Below are positions 246-12,278 of a DNA stretch of 12,770 nt, in pieces. A program made the translations under genes and the position numbers. The notes beneath the pieces are model-generated. The model had not been told where the DNA came from, made no database searches, and worked only from the letters and a program-made list of their open reading frames with translations. Location: the UHGV virus genome UHGV-1676273. One strand, written 5' to 3'. Within the stretch, counting starts at the first letter, position 1. Every line of letters begins with the position of its first letter. The stretch comes from a virus.

Positions 246-2347
246 TGGCAAAGCGGGCATCCGCCAGGGGGATCCGTCGGGATGTCTCCGGAATTTTACG
301 CGCGCCACGCCGCATGCTGGTTGCCGACGCGGTGGCCGAGTATATGCGTGTGCCAATGGGCGCCGGTAACTCGGTCCCGTGGGATCCTAATCTGGCCCCT
401 TATGTTATCGAGCCAATGAATTGCCTGGCGTCACGCGAGTATGATGCTGTGGTGTTTGTCGGCCCGGCACGAACGGGTAAGACTATTGGCCTGATTGATG
501 GCTGGATTGTATACAGCATCGTTTGTGACCCGGCTGATATGCTGGTAATCCAGGTCTCCGAAGAGAAAGCGCGCGAACATTCAAAAAAGCGTCTTGATCG
601 CACATTCCGTTGCAGCCCGCAGGTTAAATCAAGACTGAGCCCTCGCCGTAACGATAACAACGTTCACGATCGCACATTCCGTGCAGGTAACTATCTGAAG
701 CTAGGCTGGCCTTCAGTCAATATTATGTCCTCGTCGGACTATAAATTTGTTGCTCTCACCGACTACGACCGCTTCCCGGAGGACATCGACGGGGAGGGGG
801 ACGGATTCTCGCTTGCCTCCAAACGTACCACCACATTTATGTCCGCCGGGATGACTCTGGTGGAGAGCTCGCCGGGACGTGACATCTGCGACAGCAAATG
901 GCGACGTAAGTCGCCTCATGAAGCGCCACCGACGACTGGTATTCTTTCCCTTTACAATCGTGGTGACCGCCGCCGCTGGTACTGGCCATGTCCGCACTGC
1001 GGTGAATATTTTCAGCCAGCCATGGATGCCATGACCGGCTACCGTAATGAACCGGATCCCTTTAAAGCCAGTGAGGCGGCGTATCTACTTTGCCCGCACT
1101 GCAGCGGCATTATCACTGCGGAGAAAAAGCGTGAGCTCAATAGTGCAGGAGTCTGGTTGCGTGAAGGTCAGGTCATTGATCGTAACGGCAACGTTTCCGG
1201 TGAACCGCGCCGCTCCCGTATCGCCAGTTTCTGGATGGAAGGGCCAGCTGCTGCGTATCAGACCTGGGCGCAACTGGTTTACAAATTACTGACTGCAGAA
1301 CAGGAGTATGAAGCGACAGGAAGCGAAGAAACACTCAGGGCGGTTATCAACACCGACTGGGGATTGCCTTATCTTCCTCGTGCCAGCATGGAGCAACGAA
1401 AAAGTGAACTGCTTGAGCAGCGGGCAGAGCCAGTTCCTTCCCGCAGTGTGCCGGATGGCGTTAATTTCCTTGTGGCGACAGTGGATGTGCAGGCGGGACG
1501 TCATCGCCGTTTTGTGGTTCAGGTAACGGGCTATGGCAGCCGTGGCGAACGCTGGATTATTGATCGTTACAACATCACGCAGTCATTGCGCGGTGACAGC
1601 GACGGGGAGAGCCAGCGAATTGATCCGGCCAGCTATCCGGAAGACTGGGATGTCCTGCTGACGGATGTTTTTCATAAAAGCTGGCCGCTGGCCTCCGATC
1701 CTTCTCAACAAATGCGACTGATGGCAATGGCGGTGGACTCCGGCGGTGAAGACGGGGTCACTGATAATGCCTATAAATTCTGGCGTCGTTGCCGTCGTGA
1801 TGGCCTTGGTAAACGTATTTACCTGTTTAAGGGCGACAGCATCCGGCGCGCAAAACTGATCAGCCGTACATTCCCTGATAACACCGGACGAACGGGCCGA
1901 CGGGCGCAGGCCGCAGGTGATGTGCCGCTCTGGCTTCTTCAGACGGATGCCCTGAAAGACCGGGTGAATAACGCGTTATGGCGTGACTCGCCAGGTCCCG
2001 GCTATGTGCATTTCCCTGACTGGCTGGGGAGCTGGTTTTACGACGAACTGACGTATGAAGAGCGGAGCAGTGACGGGAAATGGAGTAAGCCGGGTCGCGG
2101 TGCCAACGAAGCTTTTGACCTGATGGTGTATGCCGAGGCTCTGGTCATTCTGCATGGATACGAAAAGATCCGCTGGCCGGATGCACCGGAGTGGGCGAGC
2201 CGGGAAACCTGGCTGGAGTGTGTCCCGGACAGTACCGAACCGTCACCCTCACCGGAACCGGTATCCACGCCTGTTAAAAAACAAAAACGGAAGAAAACAG
2301 TAACTGACGATGTTAACCCCTGGCTGACTTCCGGAGGATGGTTATGA
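245..2347 (+). CDS. Terminase large subunit, lambda gpA family (700 aa)
   Basis: Walker A-like VGPARTGKT near the N-terminus; paired Cys motifs CPHCGEYF and CPHCSGI arranged as in lambda gpA; VATVDVQ nuclease-region motif. GAGGAGGA lies 5-13 nt upstream of the ATG at 245. First gene of the head module. Confidence 0.9.
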   Translation: MAKRASARGIRRDVSGILRAPRRMLVADAVAEYMRVPMGAGNSVPWDPNLAPYVIEPMNCLASREYDAVVFVGPARTGKTIGLIDGWIVYSIVCDPADMLVIQVSEEKAREHSKKRLDRTFRCSPQVKSRLSPRRNDNNVHDRTFRAGNYLKLGWPSVNIMSSSDYKFVALTDYDRFPEDIDGEGDGFSLASKRTTTFMSAGMTLVESSPGRDICDSKWRRKSPHEAPPTTGILSLYNRGDRRRWYWPCPHCGEYFQPAMDAMTGYRNEPDPFKASEAAYLLCPHCSGIITAEKKRELNSAGVWLREGQVIDRNGNVSGEPRRSRIASFWMEGPAAAYQTWAQLVYKLLTAEQEYEATGSEETLRAVINTDWGLPYLPRASMEQRKSELLEQRAEPVPSRSVPDGVNFLVATVDVQAGRHRRFVVQVTGYGSRGERWIIDRYNITQSLRGDSDGESQRIDPASYPEDWDVLLTDVFHKSWPLASDPSQQMRLMAMAVDSGGEDGVTDNAYKFWRRCRRDGLGKRIYLFKGDSIRRAKLISRTFPDNTGRTGRRAQAAGDVPLWLLQTDALKDRVNNALWRDSPGPGYVHFPDWLGSWFYDELTYEERSSDGKWSKPGRGANEAFDLMVYAEALVILHGYEKIRWPDAPEWASRETWLECVPDSTEPSPSPEPVSTPVKKQKRKKTVTDDVNPWLTSGGWL

Positions 2348-2556
2348 ATCAGAATGATATTGAAGCCATGATTCAGCGTTATACGGAAGCTGAAATGGCG
2401 GTGCTGGACGGAAAATCCGTCACCTTTAATGGTCAGCAGATGACCATGGAAAACTTATCTGAGATCCGGCAGGGACGGCAGGAGTGGGAGCGCCGCCTTG
2501 CGGCTCTGATTACACGACGACGGGGGCATCCCGGGTACCGGCTGGCGAGGTTCTGA
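2344..2556 (+). CDS. Head completion / head-tail joining protein, gpW-like (70 aa)
   Basis: About 70 aa with C-terminal ...ITRRRGHPGYRLARF, resembling the lambda gpW C-terminus (...RRRGPAGFYV). Sits between terminase and portal as in lambda. Start chosen at ATG 2344 (GGAGG at 2333-2337, 6-nt spacer) rather than ATG 2338; it overlaps the terminase stop (ATGA). Confidence 0.75.
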   Translation: MNQNDIEAMIQRYTEAEMAVLDGKSVTFNGQQMTMENLSEIRQGRQEWERRLAALITRRRGHPGYRLARF

Positions 2557-4064
2557 TGGCAATTCTTGATGATGTGATTGGCGTTTTTTCACCAGGATGG
2601 AAAGCGGCAAGGCTGCGTTCCCGTGCGGTGATCCAGGCTTATGAGGCCGTAAAAACGACGCGGACACACAAAGCCCGGCGGGAAAACCGAACTGCCGACC
2701 AGTTAAGCCAGTACGGGGCCGTGTCGTTACGTGAGCAGGCCCGTTACCTTGATAACAACCACGATCTGGTTATTGGTGTATTTGACAAGCTGGAAGAACG
2801 GGTGGTGGGGAAAAACGGGATTATTGTCGAGCCACATCCGGTATTACGCAATGGGGCCATTGCCCGTGATCTGGCAGCGGAGATACGCACCCGATGGAGT
2901 GAATGGTCTGTCAGTCCGGAAGTCACCGGGCAGTTTACCCGTCCGATGCTGGAACGTCTGATGCTGCGTACCTGGCTGCGCGATGGTGAGGTGTTTGCCC
3001 AGATGGTTTCCGGGCGCATAAACAGCCTGACGCCTTCTGCCGGTGTTCATTTCTGGCTGGAGGCGCTCGAGCCGGACTTTATTCCCATGACCAGTGATGA
3101 GAGCAACAGGCTGAATCAGGGCGTGTTTGTTGATGACTGGGGGCGTCCCGAAAAATATCTGGTGTATAAAAGCCGTCCCGTATCCGGGCGGCAGATGGAA
3201 ACCAAAGAAGTGGATGCAGAGCGAATGCTGCATCTTAAATTTGTTCGCCGTCTGCACCAGATGCGCGGGACGTCTTTGTTGTCCGGTGTGCTGATCCGCC
3301 TCAGTGCCCTGAAAGAGTATGAAGATTCTGAGCTGACTGCAGCAAGGATCGCCGCTGCTCTGGGGATGTACATCCGGAAAGGCGACGGGCAGAGCTATGA
3401 ACCGGATGGTAATGGCAGCAAGGAGAATGAACGCGAGCTTACCATTCAGCCAGGCATTATTTACGACGATCTGAAACCCGGCGAAGAAATCGGAATGGTG
3501 AAGTCGGATCGTCCCAATCCTAACCTTGAAACTTTTCGTAATGGTCAGTTGCGTGCCGTGGCGGCGGGCAGTCGTCTGAGTTTTTCCAGTACAGCGCGCA
3601 ACTATAACGGCACTTACAGCGCCCAGCGTCAGGAGCTGGTTGAATCCACTGATGGCTACCTGATCCTGCAGGACTGGTTTATTGGTGCCGTCACCCGCCC
3701 GATGTATCGTGCCTGGCTGAAACAGGCTGTGGCATCCGGTGTTATCAGGCTACCCCGCGATCTTGACCGTTCTTCACTGTATACCGCGGTGTATTCCGGA
3801 CCGGTGATGCCGTGGATTGACCCTGTTAAGGAGGCTGAGGCCTGGAAAATCCAGATTCGTGGTGGAGCGGCGACAGAATCAGACTGGGTACGTGCAGGTG
3901 GTCGTAATCCGGATGATGTCAAACGTCGGCGCAAGGCCGAAATTGATGAAAACCGCAAGCTGGATCTGGTATTTGATACCGATCCGGCCAGTGATAAAGG
4001 AGGCAGCAGTGCCGCAACGAAACGACAGGAGCCGCAGCACACCGACGACCAGTCCGAAGAATAA
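2556..4064 (+). CDS. Portal protein (502 aa)
   Basis: About 500 aa ORF directly after the gpW-like gene, with start overlapping its stop (TGATG at 2554-2558) and GAGG 5 nt upstream. Size and position match lambda gpB; acidic C-terminus. The track start at 2484 is an upstream extension overlapping gpW and is rejected. Confidence 0.8.
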   Translation: MAILDDVIGVFSPGWKAARLRSRAVIQAYEAVKTTRTHKARRENRTADQLSQYGAVSLREQARYLDNNHDLVIGVFDKLEERVVGKNGIIVEPHPVLRNGAIARDLAAEIRTRWSEWSVSPEVTGQFTRPMLERLMLRTWLRDGEVFAQMVSGRINSLTPSAGVHFWLEALEPDFIPMTSDESNRLNQGVFVDDWGRPEKYLVYKSRPVSGRQMETKEVDAERMLHLKFVRRLHQMRGTSLLSGVLIRLSALKEYEDSELTAARIAAALGMYIRKGDGQSYEPDGNGSKENERELTIQPGIIYDDLKPGEEIGMVKSDRPNPNLETFRNGQLRAVAAGSRLSFSSTARNYNGTYSAQRQELVESTDGYLILQDWFIGAVTRPMYRAWLKQAVASGVIRLPRDLDRSSLYTAVYSGPVMPWIDPVKEAEAWKIQIRGGAATESDWVRAGGRNPDDVKRRRKAEIDENRKLDLVFDTDPASDKGGSSAATKRQEPQHTDDQSEE

Positions 4065-6122: not shown

Positions 6123-6446
6123 ATGGCAAAGAATTTTGTAGAAGAAGGAAAAACGGTGGCGATTGTTGCCAGTGCAGCCATCAGCAGCGGAGATCTGGTG
6201 CAGGTGGGTGATGTTTTTGCGGTAGCGCTGACCGATATTCCACAGGGTGAAACAGGCGACGGCCTGACCGAAGGTGTGTTTATGCTGCCTAAGCTGAAAA
6301 CGGATGACATGAAAACGGGTAAGAAGGTTTATCTGAAGTCCGGAAAAGTTCAGTTGACTAACAGCGGCTCTGATCCGCTGGTCGGGGTTGTCTGGGCAGA
6401 TGCCGGAACCAGTGCAGAAGAAGTGCCGGTAAAACTCAATGTCTGA
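6123..6446 (+). CDS. Small head-associated protein of unknown function (107 aa), possibly a head decoration protein
   Basis: GGAG at 6113-6116 with 6-nt spacer to ATG 6123. Gly/Val-rich, likely beta-rich protein (MAKNFVEEGKTVAIV...GVFMLPKLK...). Occupies the slot between the capsid gene and the FII-like gene. The DUF2190-like assignment is from memory and unverified. Confidence 0.6.
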   Translation: MAKNFVEEGKTVAIVASAAISSGDLVQVGDVFAVALTDIPQGETGDGLTEGVFMLPKLKTDDMKTGKKVYLKSGKVQLTNSGSDPLVGVVWADAGTSAEEVPVKLNV

Positions 6447-6714
6447 TCCCTTTTCCCGGCTGGCAGCGCGTATGGATGCGATCACGGTCAGAAAGATGGG
6501 AAAGACAGCCTCGATTAATGATGTCGATATGACTGTGATCCCGGGAGAAACACTGGCAGAGCTGAATGCTCTGTCCGGACCTGCGGTCTCTCTGGTGGTG
6601 TTTTCTTCGGGATACCGCCCACGGCGCGGGGATCGCGTTGTTTATGACGGACAACAATGGACGGTCACACGGCATGAACGTTTTAACGGTAAGCCAATGA
6701 TCTTTATTGAGTAA
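6439..6714 (+). CDS. Head-tail joining protein, gpFII-like (91 aa)
   Basis: N-terminus MSDPFSRLAARMDAI resembles lambda gpFII (MADFDNLFDAAIARADE); C-terminal RRGDRVVYDGQQWTV matches the RRGDTLTIGEENFWV region of FII. Start overlaps the preceding gene by 8 nt. Located immediately before Z. Confidence 0.75.
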   Translation: MSDPFSRLAARMDAITVRKMGKTASINDVDMTVIPGETLAELNALSGPAVSLVVFSSGYRPRRGDRVVYDGQQWTVTRHERFNGKPMIFIE

Positions 6715-7712: not shown

Positions 7713-8456
7713 ATGACCACACCAAATCCACTGGCAAAAACGAAAGGTGCGGGAACGACGTTCTGGATGTACACCGGCAAGGGCGATGCGTTTGCGAACC
7801 CTTTATCGGACACTGACTGGCTGCGTCTTGCGATGGTGAAGGATCTGCAACCTGGCGAAATGACCGCTGATGCAGAAGATGACACTTATCTCGATGATGA
7901 AGATGCAGACTGGAAAACGACAACCCAGGGGCAGAAATCCGTCGGTGATACTTCGGCGACGCTGGCCTGGCGTCCGGGTGACAGCGGGCAGAAAAAACTG
8001 GTTCAGTTGTTCGACTCCGGTGAAGTCTGCGCGTTTCGTATCAAATATCCCAACGGTACTGTTGATGTTTTCCGTGGCTGGCTGAGTTCACTGGGTAAAA
8101 CCATTGCCTCAAAAGACGTGATGACCCGCACCGTGAAAATCAGCGGTGTGGGGCGTCCGTATCTGGCAGAGGAGGGCACTGAAACCGTGGGCGTTACCGG
8201 GCTGACGGTGGCACCGGCATCCGCCAGTGTCAATGTGGGAGCAACCACCACGCTGACCTTTACAGTAAAACCTGACGGAGCCAGTGACAAAGCGATCAGT
8301 GTGCATTCGACAGATCCACAGACTGCCACGGTGACCCTGAACGGGCTTGTGGCCACGGTGAAAGGCGTGAAGCAGGGCAGTGTCAGCATTGTGGGCATGA
8401 CTTCTGACGGCGATTTTGTGGCAGTGGCTACGGTGGCTGTCAGCGCCGCAGGTTAA
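7713..8456 (+). CDS. V: Major tail protein V with C-terminal Ig-like domain (247 aa)
   Basis: Close match to recalled lambda gpV: KGAGTTFWMY, ANPLSDTDW, YLDDEDADW, NGTVDVFRGW, and a C-terminal Ig-like segment (TVAPASASVNVGATTTLTF...). AAGGAGGTGG SD with 5-nt spacer before ATG 7713. The track start at 7638 is an upstream extension. Confidence 0.92.
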   Translation: MTTPNPLAKTKGAGTTFWMYTGKGDAFANPLSDTDWLRLAMVKDLQPGEMTADAEDDTYLDDEDADWKTTTQGQKSVGDTSATLAWRPGDSGQKKLVQLFDSGEVCAFRIKYPNGTVDVFRGWLSSLGKTIASKDVMTRTVKISGVGRPYLAEEGTETVGVTGLTVAPASASVNVGATTTLTFTVKPDGASDKAISVHSTDPQTATVTLNGLVATVKGVKQGSVSIVGMTSDGDFVAVATVAVSAAG

Positions 8457-8476
8457 CAGGACGATACTCATCATTT

Positions 8477-8500
8477 GCCCCGGTTATCCGGGGCTTTTTT
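8477..8500. terminator. Rho-independent terminator/attenuator between V and G
   Basis: GCCCCGG-TTAT-CCGGGGC hairpin (7-bp GC stem) at 8477-8494 followed by TTTTTT at 8495-8500, 21 nt after the V stop. Confidence 0.7.
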
Positions 8501-8516
8501 GCAGGTGGAGAACATG

Positions 8517-8903
8517 ATGTTTCTGAAACAGGGCACGTTTAATTATGAAAAACAGTCCGTGGTGCTCAGTGAGCTGTCCGGGCTGCAGAGAATTGAATAT
8601 CTGGCGTTTGTTCAGCAGCGAACGGCAAAGTTTGATGCCGGGGAGGGAGAACTGCCGGAGGCTGAACGACAGATTGCTTTTCTGCGGATGGGGATGGATA
8701 TCAATGCCTGGCTGGTTTCCCGCTCACTGTGGAATGCGGATCAGTCTAAGGATGTAGAGACGCTTTGCGCATCCGTTATTACAACATGGTCGTATGATGC
8801 CCTGGGGGCGGGGGCGGAGATGGTTCTGTCGCTGAGCGGTATGGGGGCCATTGAGAATGCCGGGGATTTGGAGCATGAGGTGCTGACGCCGGAAAAGTCC
8901 TGA
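8517..8903 (+). CDS. G: Tail assembly chaperone G (128 aa)
   Basis: N-terminus MFLKQGTF...VVLSELSGLQRIEYLAF resembles lambda gpG (MFLKTESFE...TLSELSALQRIEHLA). GGTGGAG SD with 6-nt spacer to ATG 8517 (ATG 8514 also possible). Sits directly upstream of the tape measure gene. Confidence 0.85.
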   Translation: MFLKQGTFNYEKQSVVLSELSGLQRIEYLAFVQQRTAKFDAGEGELPEAERQIAFLRMGMDINAWLVSRSLWNADQSKDVETLCASVITTWSYDALGAGAEMVLSLSGMGAIENAGDLEHEVLTPEKS

Positions 8904-9241
8904 CGCGGGAAATGCAGTTTGTCATGCGGCTTGCCCGGGAGTTCCGGCGGGCAGACTGGCGGCGGATGCTGTCGGAAATGTCGGCCACTGAGCTTGGTGA
9001 GTGGGGCGATTATTTCCGGATGCAGAGCTTCAGTGATGTGTGGATGGATGCGCAGTTTGCCTCGCTGAAGGCATTGATCGTGAGAATGGTGTCCGGCAGC
9101 AGTGATGCTGCGGTGGCTGATTTCAGCCTTTTACCGGAAGAGAACGGGATACCGGAGCGAACGGACGAAGAACTGATGCATCTTGGAGAAGGTATTTCCG
9201 GAGGTGTGCGTTATGGACCAGATAGCCAACCTGGTCATTGA
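8517..9241 (+). CDS. Tail assembly chaperone G-T fusion made by -1 programmed frameshift near 8891-8897 (about 242 aa predicted)
   Basis: The -1 frame relative to G is open only from 8879 (TGA at 8876-8878) and runs to TGA 9239-9241, overlapping the H start. This matches the conserved G/GT arrangement upstream of tape measure genes. The only slippery candidate in the 8879-8900 overlap is G_GAA_AAG at 8891-8897, one nucleotide different from lambda G_GGA_AAG. Confidence 0.7.
8891..8897 (+). other. Candidate -1 ribosomal frameshift heptamer GGAAAAG (G_GAA_AAG in the G frame)
   Basis: It lies four codons before the G stop and is the only site inside the 22-nt window where the G frame and the T frame are both open. 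A-site AAG to AAA re-pairing of tRNA-Lys is a known shift-prone event in E. coli. Confidence 0.55.
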
Positions 9242-12200
9242 TTTGGGGATTGATGCGGCAGAGTTTAAAAATGAAATTCCCCGTATCAAAAACCTTCTGA
9301 ATGGTGCCGCCAGCGATGCAGAACGGTCTTCTGCCCGTATGCAGCGTTTTATGGAGCGTCAGACTCAGGCCGCCCGGCAGACAACGCAGGCGGCTTCTTC
9401 GGCTGCAACAGCCGCATCCGTCCATGCGCAGACGGTGGAGAAGAACGCACAGGCTCATGAACGCATGGCCCGCGAGGTGGAGAAAACCCGCCAGCGTATG
9501 GAGGCACTGAGCCAGAAAATGCGCGAGGAACAGGCGCAGGCCATGGCTCTGGCGGAGGCTCAGGATAAAGCGGCTGCTGCGTTTTATCGTCAGATTGACA
9601 GTGTGAAACAGGCCAGTGCGGGGCTGCAGGAATTACAGCGTATTCAGCAGCAGATCCGACAGGCCAGAAACAGTGGCGGGATTGGTCAGCAGGATTATCT
9701 GGCGCTGATTTCTGAGGTTACGGCGAAAACCCGTGTTCTTACACAGGCTGAGGAAGAGGCTACCCGACAGAAAGTGGCGTTTATCCGTCAGCTTAAAGAG
9801 CAGGCAACCCGCCAGAATCTTTCTTCTTCTGAGTTGCTTCGTGCTAAGGCTGCCCAGCTGGGGGTAAGCAGTGCTGCAGAAGTGTATATCCGCAAAATGG
9901 AGCAGGCAGGAAAAGCCACGCATTCGCTGGGTCTGAAAAGTGCAGCGGCCCGCCAGGAGATAGGCGTTCTGATAGGTGAACTGGCCCGCGGCAATTTAGG
10001 GGCGCTGAGGGGATCCGGGATAACGCTGGCTAACCGTGCCGGATGGATAGACACACTGATGTCACCGAAAGGCATGATGCTTGGCGGGGTTATTGGCGGT
10101 ATTGCCGCGGCCGTCTATGGTCTGGGTAAAGCCTGGTATGACGGTCAGAAGGAGGGGGAAGAATTTAACCGCCAGTTGTCGCTGACGGGGCATTATGCCG
10201 GAGTCACTGCCGGGCAGCTGTGGACGCTCAGTCGTGCTATTTCCGGGAATGGTATTACGCAACATGCTGCAGCCGGTGCGCTGGCTCAGGTGGTGGGGAG
10301 TGGTGCATTTCGTGGAAACGATATCGGTATGGTGGCGAGAGCTGCCGCACAGATGGAGCGATCGGTTGGCCAGTCGGTCAGCGATACCATAAATCAGTTT
10401 AAGCGGCTGAAGGATGATCCTGTAAATGCCGCGAAGGCTCTGGACAATGAGCTGCATTTTCTTACTGCCACTCAGCTTGAGCAGATACGTGTCCTTGGGG
10501 ATCAGGGACGGTCCAGTGATGCTGCACGGATAGCCATGTCTGCACTGGCAGAGGAAACCGGTCGGCGTACTGCGGATATTGATAATAACCTCAATGCGCT
10601 GGGCAGTACGCTGAAGTATCTGTCTGATTTATGGAGTCGTTTCTGGGATGCGGCCATGAATATTGGTCGTGAAGACTCGCTGGATGAACAGATTGCCGCT
10701 TTACAGGAGAAAGTGTCGCGGGCGAAAAGACTCCCCTGGACGGCATCATCTTCTCAGGTTGAATACGATCAGCAGCGTCTTAACGATCTTCAGGAGAAAA
10801 AACGCCAGAAGGATTTGCAGGATGCAAAAGAGCAGGCAGAGCGGAATTATCAGGAGCAACAGAAACGACGTAATGCTGAAAATGCTGCACTGAACCGGAT
10901 GAATGAAACGGAAGCAGCACGACATCAGCGTGAAATTGCGCGTATTAATTCCATGCAGTACGCCGATCAGGCTGTCAGGGATGCGGCGATACAACGTGAA
11001 AATGAACGTTACGAGAAAGCCCTGGCATCCGGTAAGAAAAAAACACGCGAAACCCGTAATGATGAGGCCACCCGGTTATTGCTGCAGTACAGTCAGCAAC
11101 AGGCACAGGTGGAAGGACAGATTGCTGCTGCCAGACAGTCAGCAGGCATTGCCACGGAAAGGATGACAGAAGCGCATAAACAGCTTCTGGCTCTGCAGCA
11201 GCGCATCAGCGACCTGGACGGGAAAAAACTGACGGCAGATGAAAAGAGTGTGCTGGCCCGTAAAGATGAACTGATTCAGGCACTGACGCTGCTGGATGTA
11301 AAACAGCAGGAGCTTCAGAAACAGACGGCACTCAACGAGCTGAAGAAAAAAACAATTCAGCTGACCAGTCAACTGGCTGAAGAAGAGCGCGCTCAGCGTC
11401 AGCAACATGACCTGGATATCGCCACGGTGGGTATGGGTGATCAGCAGCGGCAGCGATATCAGGTACAACTGAGTCTTCGCCAGAAATACCAGCAACAGCT
11501 GGAGCAGTTGAGGCGGGATAGTGAGCAGAAAGGGACATATAACACGGATGACTACAGAAAGGCCGAGCAGGCGCTGACGGAGAGCCTGAACCGACAACTG
11601 AATGAGAATCGCCGTTACTGGCAACAGCTTGAAGTTGTGCAGGGTAACTGGAAAAACGGAGTCCTGCGTGCATTTCAGGATTTTACCGTGGATGCAGATA
11701 ATACGGCAGGAACAGCAGAACAGGTGTTCTCGTCAGCCTTCAGCAACATGGGAAATGGCCTGGCAACTTTTGTCACTACCGGCAAACTCAACTTCAAATC
11801 CTTCACCTCTTCGGTGCTGTCAGATATGGCGAAAATCCTGGCGCAGGCAACCATGATGAAATCGATAAAAGGGATTGGCAGTGTACTGGGATTTGATCTC
11901 AGCAGCCTTTCCCTGAATGCCAATGGGGGGATTTATCAGTCTGCTGATTTGAGTCGCTACAGTGGCACGGTGGTTAACCGTCCGACGTTTTTTGCTTTTG
12001 CAAAAGGCGCGGGTGTGATGGGGGAAGCGGGACCTGAAGCCATTCTGCCACTGCGTCGTGGTGCTGACGGTAAGCTGGGGGTTGTGGCGGATATTGGTGG
12101 TTCAGGTATGGCGATGTTTGCCCCGCAGTACAACATCGAGATCAATAACGATGGCACGAACGGGCAGATAGGTCCGGCTGCCCTGAAGGTGGTTTATGAC

Positions 12201-12278
12201 CTCGGGAAAAAAGCGGCAGCGGACTTTATGCAACAGCAGGCCCGTGATGGTGGTCGGTTAAGTGGAGCATATCGGTAA
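9213..12278 (+). CDS. H: Tail tape measure protein H (1021 aa)
   Basis: Very long ORF rich in Gln/Glu/Arg/Ala coiled-coil sequence, with a Gly-rich hydrophobic segment (GMMLGGVIGGIAAAVYGLGKAWY). C-terminus INNDGTNGQIGPAALKVVYDLGKKAAADFMQQQARDGG matches recalled lambda gpH (INNDGTNGQIGPAALKAVYDMARKGARDEIQTQMRDGG). GGAGGTG SD with 6-nt spacer before ATG 9213; the track start at 9183 is rejected. Confidence 0.93.
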   Translation: MDQIANLVIDLGIDAAEFKNEIPRIKNLLNGAASDAERSSARMQRFMERQTQAARQTTQAASSAATAASVHAQTVEKNAQAHERMAREVEKTRQRMEALSQKMREEQAQAMALAEAQDKAAAAFYRQIDSVKQASAGLQELQRIQQQIRQARNSGGIGQQDYLALISEVTAKTRVLTQAEEEATRQKVAFIRQLKEQATRQNLSSSELLRAKAAQLGVSSAAEVYIRKMEQAGKATHSLGLKSAAARQEIGVLIGELARGNLGALRGSGITLANRAGWIDTLMSPKGMMLGGVIGGIAAAVYGLGKAWYDGQKEGEEFNRQLSLTGHYAGVTAGQLWTLSRAISGNGITQHAAAGALAQVVGSGAFRGNDIGMVARAAAQMERSVGQSVSDTINQFKRLKDDPVNAAKALDNELHFLTATQLEQIRVLGDQGRSSDAARIAMSALAEETGRRTADIDNNLNALGSTLKYLSDLWSRFWDAAMNIGREDSLDEQIAALQEKVSRAKRLPWTASSSQVEYDQQRLNDLQEKKRQKDLQDAKEQAERNYQEQQKRRNAENAALNRMNETEAARHQREIARINSMQYADQAVRDAAIQRENERYEKALASGKKKTRETRNDEATRLLLQYSQQQAQVEGQIAAARQSAGIATERMTEAHKQLLALQQRISDLDGKKLTADEKSVLARKDELIQALTLLDVKQQELQKQTALNELKKKTIQLTSQLAEEERAQRQQHDLDIATVGMGDQQRQRYQVQLSLRQKYQQQLEQLRRDSEQKGTYNTDDYRKAEQALTESLNRQLNENRRYWQQLEVVQGNWKNGVLRAFQDFTVDADNTAGTAEQVFSSAFSNMGNGLATFVTTGKLNFKSFTSSVLSDMAKILAQATMMKSIKGIGSVLGFDLSSLSLNANGGIYQSADLSRYSGTVVNRPTFFAFAKGAGVMGEAGPEAILPLRRGADGKLGVVADIGGSGMAMFAPQYNIEINNDGTNGQIGPAALKVVYDLGKKAAADFMQQQARDGGRLSGAYR

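What the first reader, a model, noticed from the sequence alone, without database searches (positions are those of the whole stretch)
8879..8903. G-T programmed frameshift appears to use a variant slippery heptamer, GGAAAAG rather than lambda GGGAAAG
The G and T frames overlap over only 22 nt (8879-8900), which confines the shift site. The only slip-prone sequence there is G_GAA_AAG. The A-site tRNA-Lys can re-pair AAG to AAA, but the P-site codon GAA to GGA re-pairing is poor. This predicts a mainly A-site-driven slip, possibly with lower efficiency than lambda's roughly 4 percent. The site is read directly from the sequence; the mechanism is inference.
Basis: partly seen in the sequence, partly recalled or inferred. 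Interest (0 to 1): 0.5.

Follow-up and report, generated by a model that had tools for sequence, protein, structure and literature searches.

The report
Known variant G-T frameshift heptamer
This is the expected ribosomal frameshift site that lets a lambda-like prophage make its two tail-assembly chaperones (G and the G-T fusion); its GGAAAAG slip sequence differs from lambda's by one base, is common in related phages, and is already annotated as the slip site in phage N15.

Summary
G (8514/8517-8903, PF06894) and the T frame (open 8879-9241, PF06223) overlap by 22 nt. The only in-phase slip-prone sequence in the overlap is G_GAA_AAG at 8891-8897.

It is not a one-off variant. I collected 209 related G-T loci, which give 97 distinct sequence contexts. 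An in-phase A_AAG sits at the same distance from the T domain in all of them. The heptamers are GGAAAAG 86, GGGAAAG 8 and three singletons. Phages phi80, mEp043, Gifsy-1 and N15 carry GGAAAAG. The N15 GenBank record labels it "slippery sequence for -1 translational frameshift".

The first G of the heptamer is a wobble base of Pro, Ala, Leu or Val codons, yet it is G in 95 of 97 contexts, while neighbouring wobble bases vary freely. This points to P-site tRNA-Glu re-pairing GAA to GGA through a central G-U pair, that is, a tandem slip.

I found no conserved downstream RNA structure. An SD-like GAGGTG lies 8 nt upstream but is not conserved across the family. Efficiency is untested; in a published in vitro system this exact heptamer was poorly slippery.

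Verdict: real, functional and ordinary, with a small mechanistic puzzle.

The parts
8514..8903 (+). Gene G, tail assembly chaperone. It starts with a tandem ATG ATG, and the second ATG (8517) is the likelier start. The stop is TGA at 8901-8903.
   Evidence: PF06894 Phage_TAC_2, E=6e-39. Homologs begin MFLK. RefSeq annotates a 387-nt gpG.
8876..8878 (+). TGA stop in the -1 (T) frame. It sets the upstream limit of the shift window.
   Evidence: Read directly from the sequence and from the frame scan.
8877..8882 (+). SD-like GAGGTG, 8 nt upstream of the heptamer. It is a candidate 5' stimulator and is not established.
   Evidence: Duplex energy with the anti-SD is -6.9 kcal/mol, the 6th percentile of in-gene controls. 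The element is present in some clades and absent in the phi80/Enterobacter clade and in lambda.
8879..8900 (+). The 22-nt overlap of the G and T frames, within which the shift must occur.
8891..8897 (+). Slippery heptamer G_GAA_AAG. In the 0 frame it reads Glu-Lys; in the -1 frame it reads GGA AAA.
   Evidence: It is the only in-phase Z_ZZN in the overlap. It is conserved in 86 of 97 distinct contexts. The identical heptamer is annotated as the slippery sequence in N15.
8897..9241 (+). T segment, read in the -1 frame after the slip. The first codon is GTC at 8897-8899 and the stop is at 9239-9241. The predicted gpGT is 241 aa from ATG 8517 (127 G-frame + 114 T-frame residues), with the junction ...TPEK|VLTREM...
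   Evidence: PF06223 Phage_tail_T, E=5e-15. Variable (wobble-like) columns switch from G-frame phase to T-frame phase at the heptamer. The alignment downstream of the heptamer is gap-free across 19 lineages.
9213..12278 (+). Gene H, the tape measure protein and the client of G/GT (context).
   Evidence: PF06791, PF09718 and PF24622.

Best explanation
The window is the late (head and tail) region of an mEp460/cdtI-type lambdoid prophage. Most ribosomes translating G stop at UGA 8901 and make the chaperone gpG. A minority slip back one base on G_GAA_AAG (8891-8897) and continue in the T frame from GUC 8897. This makes a gpGT fusion of about 241 aa with the junction ...TPEK-VLTRE....

By homology with lambda, gpG and gpGT coat the tape measure protein H, and the T part recruits the tail tube protein V.

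The most likely slip mechanism is a tandem slip. A-site tRNA-Lys (mnm5s2UUU) re-pairs from AAG to AAA. P-site tRNA-Glu (mnm5s2UUC) re-pairs from GAA to GGA, with Watson-Crick pairs at codon positions 1 and 3 and a G-U pair in the middle.

Shown here: the gene identities, the frames, the single candidate site, and its conservation at the nucleotide level. Inferred: that a slip actually occurs, its efficiency, and the tandem mechanism, which I rate at about 0.6 given that the site is used.
For: - Gene order is V, G, T, H, M, each with its Pfam family. The region is 98.5-99% identical to mEp460, cdtI and Tritos.
- T is in the -1 frame, overlapping the G 3' end, in every relative examined.
- The in-phase A_AAG lies at a fixed distance from the T domain in 209 loci. 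AAG is always the Lys codon although AAG makes up only 29% of Lys codons in this window. GAA is never replaced by GAG.
- Position 1 is G in 95 of 97 contexts, across Pro, Ala, Leu and Val codons. Within one cluster the adjacent Thr codon varies (ACG 16, ACT 9, ACA 2, ACC 1) while the Ala codon is GCG in 29 of 29.
- Variable third-position columns change phase exactly at the heptamer.
- The N15 record annotates GGAAAAG as the -1 slippery sequence. The Gifsy-1 record calls its T homolog 'part of ... gpG by translational frameshifting'.
- GGGAAAG and GGAAAAG lineages are interspersed on a G+T tree, which suggests the two are interchangeable. The difference is synonymous in the T frame (GGG versus GGA).
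- Lambda biology and the roughly 30:1 ratio are taken from PMC5009743 and PMC3296357.
Against: - There is no experimental evidence for this phage or, as far as I could find, for this heptamer in a G-T context.
- In a reconstituted E. coli system, AUG GAA AAG gave mainly 0-frame product and was described as unfavourable because of a second-position mismatch for tRNA-Glu (PMC6924986).
- An A_AAG tetramer alone gave about 0.15% in vivo without a stimulator (PMC4066793).
- I found no conserved 3' structure that could compensate.
- Two natural exceptions keep only A_AAG: Morganella A_GAA_AAG and one metagenomic G_GCA_AAG. A tetramer may therefore suffice.
- The sequences are phylogenetically related, so the counts are not independent events.
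Confidence: 0.8

Rival explanations
1. Single-tRNA slippage. Only tRNA-Lys slips on the A_AAG tetramer, either in the A site or in the P site while the next codon waits. tRNA-Glu does not re-pair in any meaningful way. The site and the protein product are the same as in the best explanation.
For: - A_AAG is the most shift-prone tetramer in E. coli (PMC4066793).
- NNA_AAG sites are used naturally, for example by IS1222 at G_CGA_AAG (PMC5009743).
- Morganella A_GAA_AAG and one G_GCA_AAG locus retain only A_AAG.
- In Proteus, Providencia and Morganella the heptamer is followed directly by the stop codon.
Against: - Position 1 is G in 95 of 97 contexts although it is a synonymous site for four different amino acids. 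Neighbouring wobble sites are nearly unconstrained.
- Position 3 is only ever A or G apart from one C, so the -1 P-site codon is GGA or GGG. Both can pair with the resident tRNA.
- Tetramers need strong stimulators to reach percent levels, and none is conserved here.
Confidence: 0.15
2. T is made on its own by initiation at ATG 8912, as the mEp460, Tritos and RefSeq records annotate it, and no frameshift is needed.
For: Database annotations start T at this ATG.
Against: - That ATG is not conserved. The homologous codon is CTG, CAT, CGT or GTG in most relatives.
- There is no clear SD upstream of it.
- The T frame is open back into G in every lineage.
- The codons between the heptamer and 8912 show T-frame coding periodicity.
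- According to the review, lambda T is made only as gpGT.
Confidence: 0.03
3. The frame change occurs by another route, such as transcriptional slippage on the A run or a +2/other ribosomal event elsewhere in the overlap. Alternatively, the module is decaying and makes no GT.
For: None specific. The run of four A's is the only homopolymer in the overlap.
Against: - From my own knowledge, four A's is far shorter than the runs known to support RNA polymerase slippage.
- No other in-phase repeat exists in the overlap.
- G, T and H are intact. The module is present at over 95% identity in 1847 of 5426 complete E. coli genomes and in isolated, plaque-forming phages.
Confidence: 0.02

Closest known systems
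Phage N15 genes 14/15 (also phi80 gp13/14 and mEp043)
   Same: The heptamer is the same, G_GAA_AAG, in the same phase and at the same distance from the conserved T-domain residues. The N15 record annotates it as 'slippery sequence for -1 translational frameshift'.
   Different: The G proteins are only about 34% identical to the window's G. In N15 and phi80 the G stop lies 5 codons after the heptamer (overlap 34-82 nt); here it lies 1 codon after. The preceding codon is GCG (Ala) there and CCG (Pro) here.
Lambda G/T -1 programmed frameshift at G_GGA_AAG (Levin, Hendrix and Casjens 1993; Xu, Hendrix and Duda 2004)
   Same: The protein families are the same (PF06894/PF06223), as are the gene order V-G-T-H and the -1 direction. 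The A-site codon AAG to AAA read by tRNA-Lys is the same, and neither has a conserved 3' stimulator.
   Different: Heptamer position 3 is A rather than G. The P-site tRNA is therefore tRNA-Glu re-pairing to GGA with a central G-U pair, instead of tRNA-Gly re-pairing cognately to GGG. The overlap is 22 nt here and 61 nt in lambda.
Gifsy-1 STM2596/STM2595 (Salmonella)
   Same: This is the closest clade outside the mEp460 group (55% G identity). The junction ACG CCG GAA AAG TCC TGA is identical. The record notes translational frameshifting.
   Different: The Gifsy-1 record gives no slip site. Gifsy-1 also has a second in-phase A_AAG at the upstream edge of its 28-nt overlap.
A_AAG tetramer / NNA_AAG hexamer -1 sites (IS1222 G_CGA_AAG; Bacillus cdd A_CGA_AAG)
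   Same: The slip of the single E. coli-type tRNA-Lys from AAG to AAA is the core event (PMC5009743).
   Different: Those sites do not require a re-pairable P-site codon, and in IS elements they rely on 3' structures. Here position 1 is conserved and no structure is conserved.
dnaX A_AAA_AAG with an SD-like 5' element and a 3' hairpin
   Same: The A-site slip is the same. An SD-like GAGGTG lies 8 nt upstream in the window, roughly where the dnaX SD-like element acts.
   Different: No 3' hairpin is present. The SD-like element is not conserved across the family. The P-site codon is different. One relative, Stx2 phage L122, does use A_AAA_AAG.

Membership tests
Lambda-type gpG/gpGT tail assembly chaperone pair made by -1 PRF | The upstream ORF is a gpG-family chaperone. 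| tested here: met
   PF06894, 133 bits, E=6e-39.
Lambda-type gpG/gpGT tail assembly chaperone pair made by -1 PRF | The downstream T domain is in the -1 frame, overlaps the G 3' end, and has no conserved start of its own. | tested here: met
   PF06223 in the frame open from 8879. The -1 arrangement is present in all relatives. ATG 8912 is not conserved.
Lambda-type gpG/gpGT tail assembly chaperone pair made by -1 PRF | The pair lies between the major tail protein gene and the tape measure gene. | tested here: met
   V (PF16461) is upstream and H (PF06791/PF09718) is downstream. Z, U and M flank them.
Lambda-type gpG/gpGT tail assembly chaperone pair made by -1 PRF | A low-percent GT fusion protein is produced and is required for tail assembly. 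| not testable with these tools
   This needs a reporter, a western blot or mass spectrometry.
Canonical X_XXY_YYZ slippery heptamer | The first three bases are identical, so the P-site tRNA re-pairs cognately. | tested here: not met
   The bases are G_GA. The -1 P-site codon GGA is near-cognate for tRNA-Glu, with a central G-U pair.
Canonical X_XXY_YYZ slippery heptamer | Y_YYZ allows cognate A-site re-pairing. | tested here: met
   A_AAG is in phase.
N15-type G_GAA_AAG G-T shift site | GGAAAAG is in the same phase and at the same distance from the T domain as the annotated N15 slippery sequence. | tested here: met
   gap-free alignment.
Pure Z_ZZN tetramer (single-tRNA) shift site | Only the tetramer is constrained and the bases 5' of it are free. 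| tested here: not met
   Position 1 is G in 95 of 97 contexts and position 2 is G in 96 of 97, against 0.18-0.60 bits at control wobble sites. Two exceptions exist.
Stimulated -1 PRF (dnaX/IS type) | A conserved 3' hairpin or pseudoknot lies 5-9 nt downstream. | tested here: not met
   The RNAalifold consensus is -1.1 kcal/mol with no covarying pairs. The window fold has z=-0.8. There is no Rfam match.
Stimulated -1 PRF (dnaX/IS type) | An SD-like element lies 6-17 nt upstream. | tested here: inconclusive
   GAGGTG at 8877-8882 gives -6.9 kcal/mol, the 6th percentile of controls. It is absent in many GGAAAAG lineages.

The most novel reading that the evidence does not exclude
G_GAA_AAG, not lambda's G_GGA_AAG, is the prevailing and possibly ancestral shift heptamer of the enterobacterial lambda-family G-T module. 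It works as a true heptamer through a central G-U re-pairing of P-site tRNA-Glu. Both slipping tRNAs (Glu and Lys) would then carry mnm5s2U34. In these very common E. coli prophages the G:GT ratio would therefore be even more sensitive to host 2-thiolation (Tus/MnmA versus Isc competition) than in lambda. It would also mean that the sequence used as a 'non-slippery' control in vitro is a programmed site in vivo.
Probability: 0.3. Interest if true: 0.45.

Novelty: already known. Interest (0 to 1): 0.25.

Why it matters
The practical value is for annotation. This G-T module is present in about a third of complete E. coli genomes (1847 of 5426). RefSeq and most phage records annotate T as a separate gene starting at a non-conserved ATG. 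The real product is almost certainly a G-T fusion joined at 8897.

There is also a small mechanistic tension. A heptamer used as a poorly slippery control in vitro is used widely in nature at a site where a tuned shift of a few percent is thought to be essential. The conserved first G suggests that a P-site G-U re-pairing contributes. This can be tested cheaply, but it would refine known frameshifting rules rather than overturn them.

Tried and rejected
- Downstream stimulatory structure. Single-sequence folds of 8898-8990 and 8840-8960 were no better than shuffles (z=-0.82 and +0.19). RNAalifold on 19 lineages gave -1.1 kcal/mol with no compensatory pairs. Rejected.
- Rfam scan of 8400-9300. 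Only a chance lncRNA hit at E=0.48.
- SD-like upstream stimulator. It is present in the window's clade at a plausible spacing but is not significant family-wide. Kept only as a candidate.
- Compensation hypothesis: that GGAAAAG lineages have a closer stop codon or a stronger SD than GGGAAAG lineages. No consistent difference. Stop distances of 0, 1 or 5 codons occur with GGAAAAG, and 1 or 5 with GGGAAAG.
- Literature searches for 'GGAAAAG' and 'G GAA AAG' with frameshift, phage and tail terms returned only Peng et al. 2019 as relevant; the rest were primer sequences. The phi80 search was uninformative.
- Licznar et al. 2003 (NNA_AAG context data) and Xu et al. 2004 (survey of phage shift sites) are not held in the library. 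I therefore could not check the measured efficiency of GA-A_AAG or whether this clade was listed.
- A high-throughput frameshift preprint did not include this heptamer.

Full report
**What is in the window**

The 12.8-kb window is the late region of a lambdoid prophage. The genes are:
- terminase large subunit gpA (245-2347) and portal (2484-4064)
- cement and head-tail proteins
- Z, U, V (7638/7713-8456) and G (8514-8903)
- a T-frame ORF (open 8879-9241), tape measure H (9213-12278) and M

Each was identified by its Pfam family. The G-T-H stretch is 98.5-99% identical to phages mEp460, cdtI, Tritos and others. It occurs at more than 95% identity in 1847 of 5426 complete E. coli genomes.

**Checking the observation**

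- G ends ...ACG CCG GAA AAG TCC TGA, with its stop at 8901-8903.
- The -1 frame has TGA at 8876-8878 and is then open to the stop at 9239-9241. It encodes a PF06223 T domain.
- A scan of all in-phase Z_ZZN sites in the overlap finds only G_GAA_AAG at 8891-8897.
- In the window's genes an in-phase A_AAG occurs 13 times in 4015 codons. One falling in a 7-codon overlap by chance has a probability of about 2%.

**Comparative evidence**

I collected relatives from four sources:
- the phage records
- one genome per species
- IMG/VR
- one E. coli chromosome, which was used only to check RefSeq annotation and is not in the 209-locus census.

In all 209 loci processed, T is in the -1 frame overlapping the G 3' end. 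An in-phase A_AAG lies in the overlap in every one. Downstream of the heptamer, 19 lineages down to 32% G identity align without a single gap. Upstream, the G linker is hypervariable in both length and sequence.

Among 97 distinct 97-nt contexts the heptamers are GGAAAAG 86, GGGAAAG 8, and AGAAAAG, AAAAAAG and GGCAAAG once each. At 80% nucleotide identity there are 16 clusters. Thirteen contain GGAAAAG and three contain GGGAAAG.

The sample is biased towards relatives of the window and of the Erwinia sequence used as the second query, so these proportions should not be read as population frequencies. The point that GGAAAAG is widespread still stands. It is the heptamer of phi80, mEp043, a Klebsiella phage and a Providencia phage. 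It is also the heptamer of Gifsy-1 and of prophages of Proteus, Xenorhabdus, Citrobacter, Enterobacter, Erwinia, Kosakonia and others.

On a neighbour-joining tree of G+T proteins, the GGGAAAG lineages (lambda, a Serratia/Symbiopectobacterium group, Edwardsiella) sit in three separate places among GGAAAAG lineages. The A/G difference changes Glu to Gly in G but is synonymous (GGA/GGG) in the T frame.

**It is already recognised**

The GenBank/RefSeq record of phage N15 carries a misc_feature 'slippery sequence for -1 translational frameshift' at 10027-10033. The sequence there is GGAAAAG, in the phase ACT GCG GAA AAG CCC. The Gifsy-1 record, from the closest clade outside the mEp460 group with an identical ACG CCG GAA AAG TCC TGA junction, describes its T homolog as made 'by translational frameshifting'.

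By contrast, the mEp460, Ayreon, Tritos, PhiR40_1 and RefSeq E. coli records annotate T as an independent gene. The ATG they use (8912 here) is not conserved in relatives.

**Where exactly the frame changes**

I aligned the 97 contexts on the heptamer. The poorly conserved columns fall at G-frame third positions upstream (-15, -12, -9, -6, -3; 0.18-0.60 bits). Downstream they fall mainly at T-frame third positions (for example +11 and +17; 0.22 and 0.34 bits). The coding phase therefore switches at the heptamer.

The invariance of AAAG in that table comes partly from how I located the sites. What is not built in is that every locus has such a site, and that positions 0-2 are also conserved.

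**Mechanism**

Published work describes it the same way. [quoted passage not shown]

In vivo, the A_AAG tetramer alone gave about 0.15% and needed the IS3 pseudoknot to reach 5.6% (PMC4066793).

The comparative data point the other way on one detail, the first G of the heptamer.
- It is the wobble base of the preceding codon, which is CCG (22), GCG (41), CTG (22) or GTG (1) in GGAAAAG contexts. That is four amino acids, always G-ending. GCG is only 29% of Ala codons and CCG 46% of Pro codons in this window.
- Within the phi80-like cluster the neighbouring Thr codon is ACG 16, ACT 9, ACA 2 and ACC 1, while the Ala codon is GCG in 29 of 29.
- Overall that position carries 1.86 bits, against 0.18-0.60 bits for other upstream wobble positions.

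A pure tetramer slip has no use for this G. A tandem slip does. With G at position 1, tRNA-Glu (anticodon 3'-CUU-5', wobble base mnm5s2U) can pair with GGA as G-C, G-U, A-U.

The PRFect authors made the same G-U argument for GAA to GGA re-pairing in mycobacteriophage GGGGGAA sites. They also list a 'twofour' motif class among backward frameshift motifs (PMC10885494).

I therefore favour a tandem slip with a near-cognate P-site re-pairing, at about 0.6 given that the site is used. Single-tRNA slippage is the main rival. Morganella A_GAA_AAG and one metagenomic G_GCA_AAG locus show that A_AAG alone may sometimes be enough.

**Stimulators**

- No downstream structure is supported, either by single-sequence folding or by the alignment. 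Rfam finds nothing.
- An SD-like GAGGTG lies 8 nt upstream of the heptamer (8877-8882, overlapping the -1-frame TGA). It pairs with the anti-SD at -6.9 kcal/mol, the 6th percentile of control positions. Similar GAGG or GGAG elements occur at similar spacing in some lineages (Erwinia, Symbiopectobacterium, Buttiauxella, Edwardsiella). They are absent from the phi80/Enterobacter clade and from lambda. I record it as a candidate only.
- The G stop is 0, 1 or 5 codons after the heptamer in different lineages, with no relation to heptamer type.

**Function**

By homology with lambda, gpG and gpGT bind the tape measure protein, and the T part recruits the tail tube protein. The ratio is about 30:1, or about 4% shifting, and it matters for yield (PMC5009743; PMC3296357).

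Maynard et al. showed that loss of U34 2-thiolation of tRNA Lys/Glu/Gln raises lambda G-T shifting and lowers phage yield. In GGAAAAG both slipping tRNAs belong to that modified set. My inference is that this variant may be more sensitive to that host pathway. This is untested.

**Verdict**

The feature is an ordinary, already-annotated kind of G-T frameshift site. What is modestly new here:
- the census showing how common GGAAAAG is
- the evidence that heptamer position 1 is under selection
- the widespread mis-annotation of T in databases

Efficiency and mechanism need the simple reporter experiments listed under next steps.

Noticed in passing
window 8477-8500: A terminator-like hairpin (GCCCCGG TTAT CCGGGGC followed by T6) lies between the V stop (8456) and the G start. 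The mEp460 and Ayreon records annotate a terminator here, and N15 has a 'putative rho-indep. transcription terminator' at the same place. It could lower G/T/H expression relative to V.
   Followed up: partly
window 583-589: An in-phase A_AAA_AAG, the dnaX-type heptamer that is highly shift-prone in E. coli, lies inside the terminase large subunit gene gpA (245-2347). I did not check whether it is conserved or has any consequence.
   Followed up: no
window 6498-6504: An in-phase G_GGA_AAG, lambda's G-T heptamer, lies inside ORF 6439-6714 (PF13856 Gifsy-2 family). The -1 frame stops after 4 codons, so a slip would only truncate the protein.
   Followed up: partly
window 8514-8519: G begins with a tandem ATG ATG. 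Homologs start MFLK. The GGAG at 8507-8510 is 6 nt from the second ATG and only 3 nt from the first. RefSeq uses the second and mEp460 uses the first.
   Followed up: partly
proteins P0025 and P0042 (relatives of window 8514-9241): Two database ORFs (215 and 212 aa, from an E. coli assembly and from a metagenome contig) are in-frame G-T fusions. Internal deletions remove the G linker and the shift site (...LSLSG|FVMRL... and ...SYDA|GKVLTREM...). Such prophages would make only a GT-like protein and no free G.
   Followed up: no
protein P0001: This is a 182-aa G homolog with an internal duplication of the segment LRMGMDINAW...LSLSG.
   Followed up: no
L122 (Stx2 phage, 1299-1305); L102 (Morganella, 1902-1908); L198 (IMG/VR, 1299-1305): Rare alternative heptamers occur at the homologous G-T position: A_AAA_AAG, A_GAA_AAG and G_GCA_AAG. 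All keep A_AAG.
   Followed up: partly
L087 (JAEWTL010000010.1) and L113 (DAINBV010000046.1): Enterobacterial-type G-T modules appear on contigs labelled as a Bacillota MAG (98% identical to the window's G) and a Geobacteraceae MAG. This is probably mis-binning of E. coli or Enterobacter prophage contigs.
   Followed up: no
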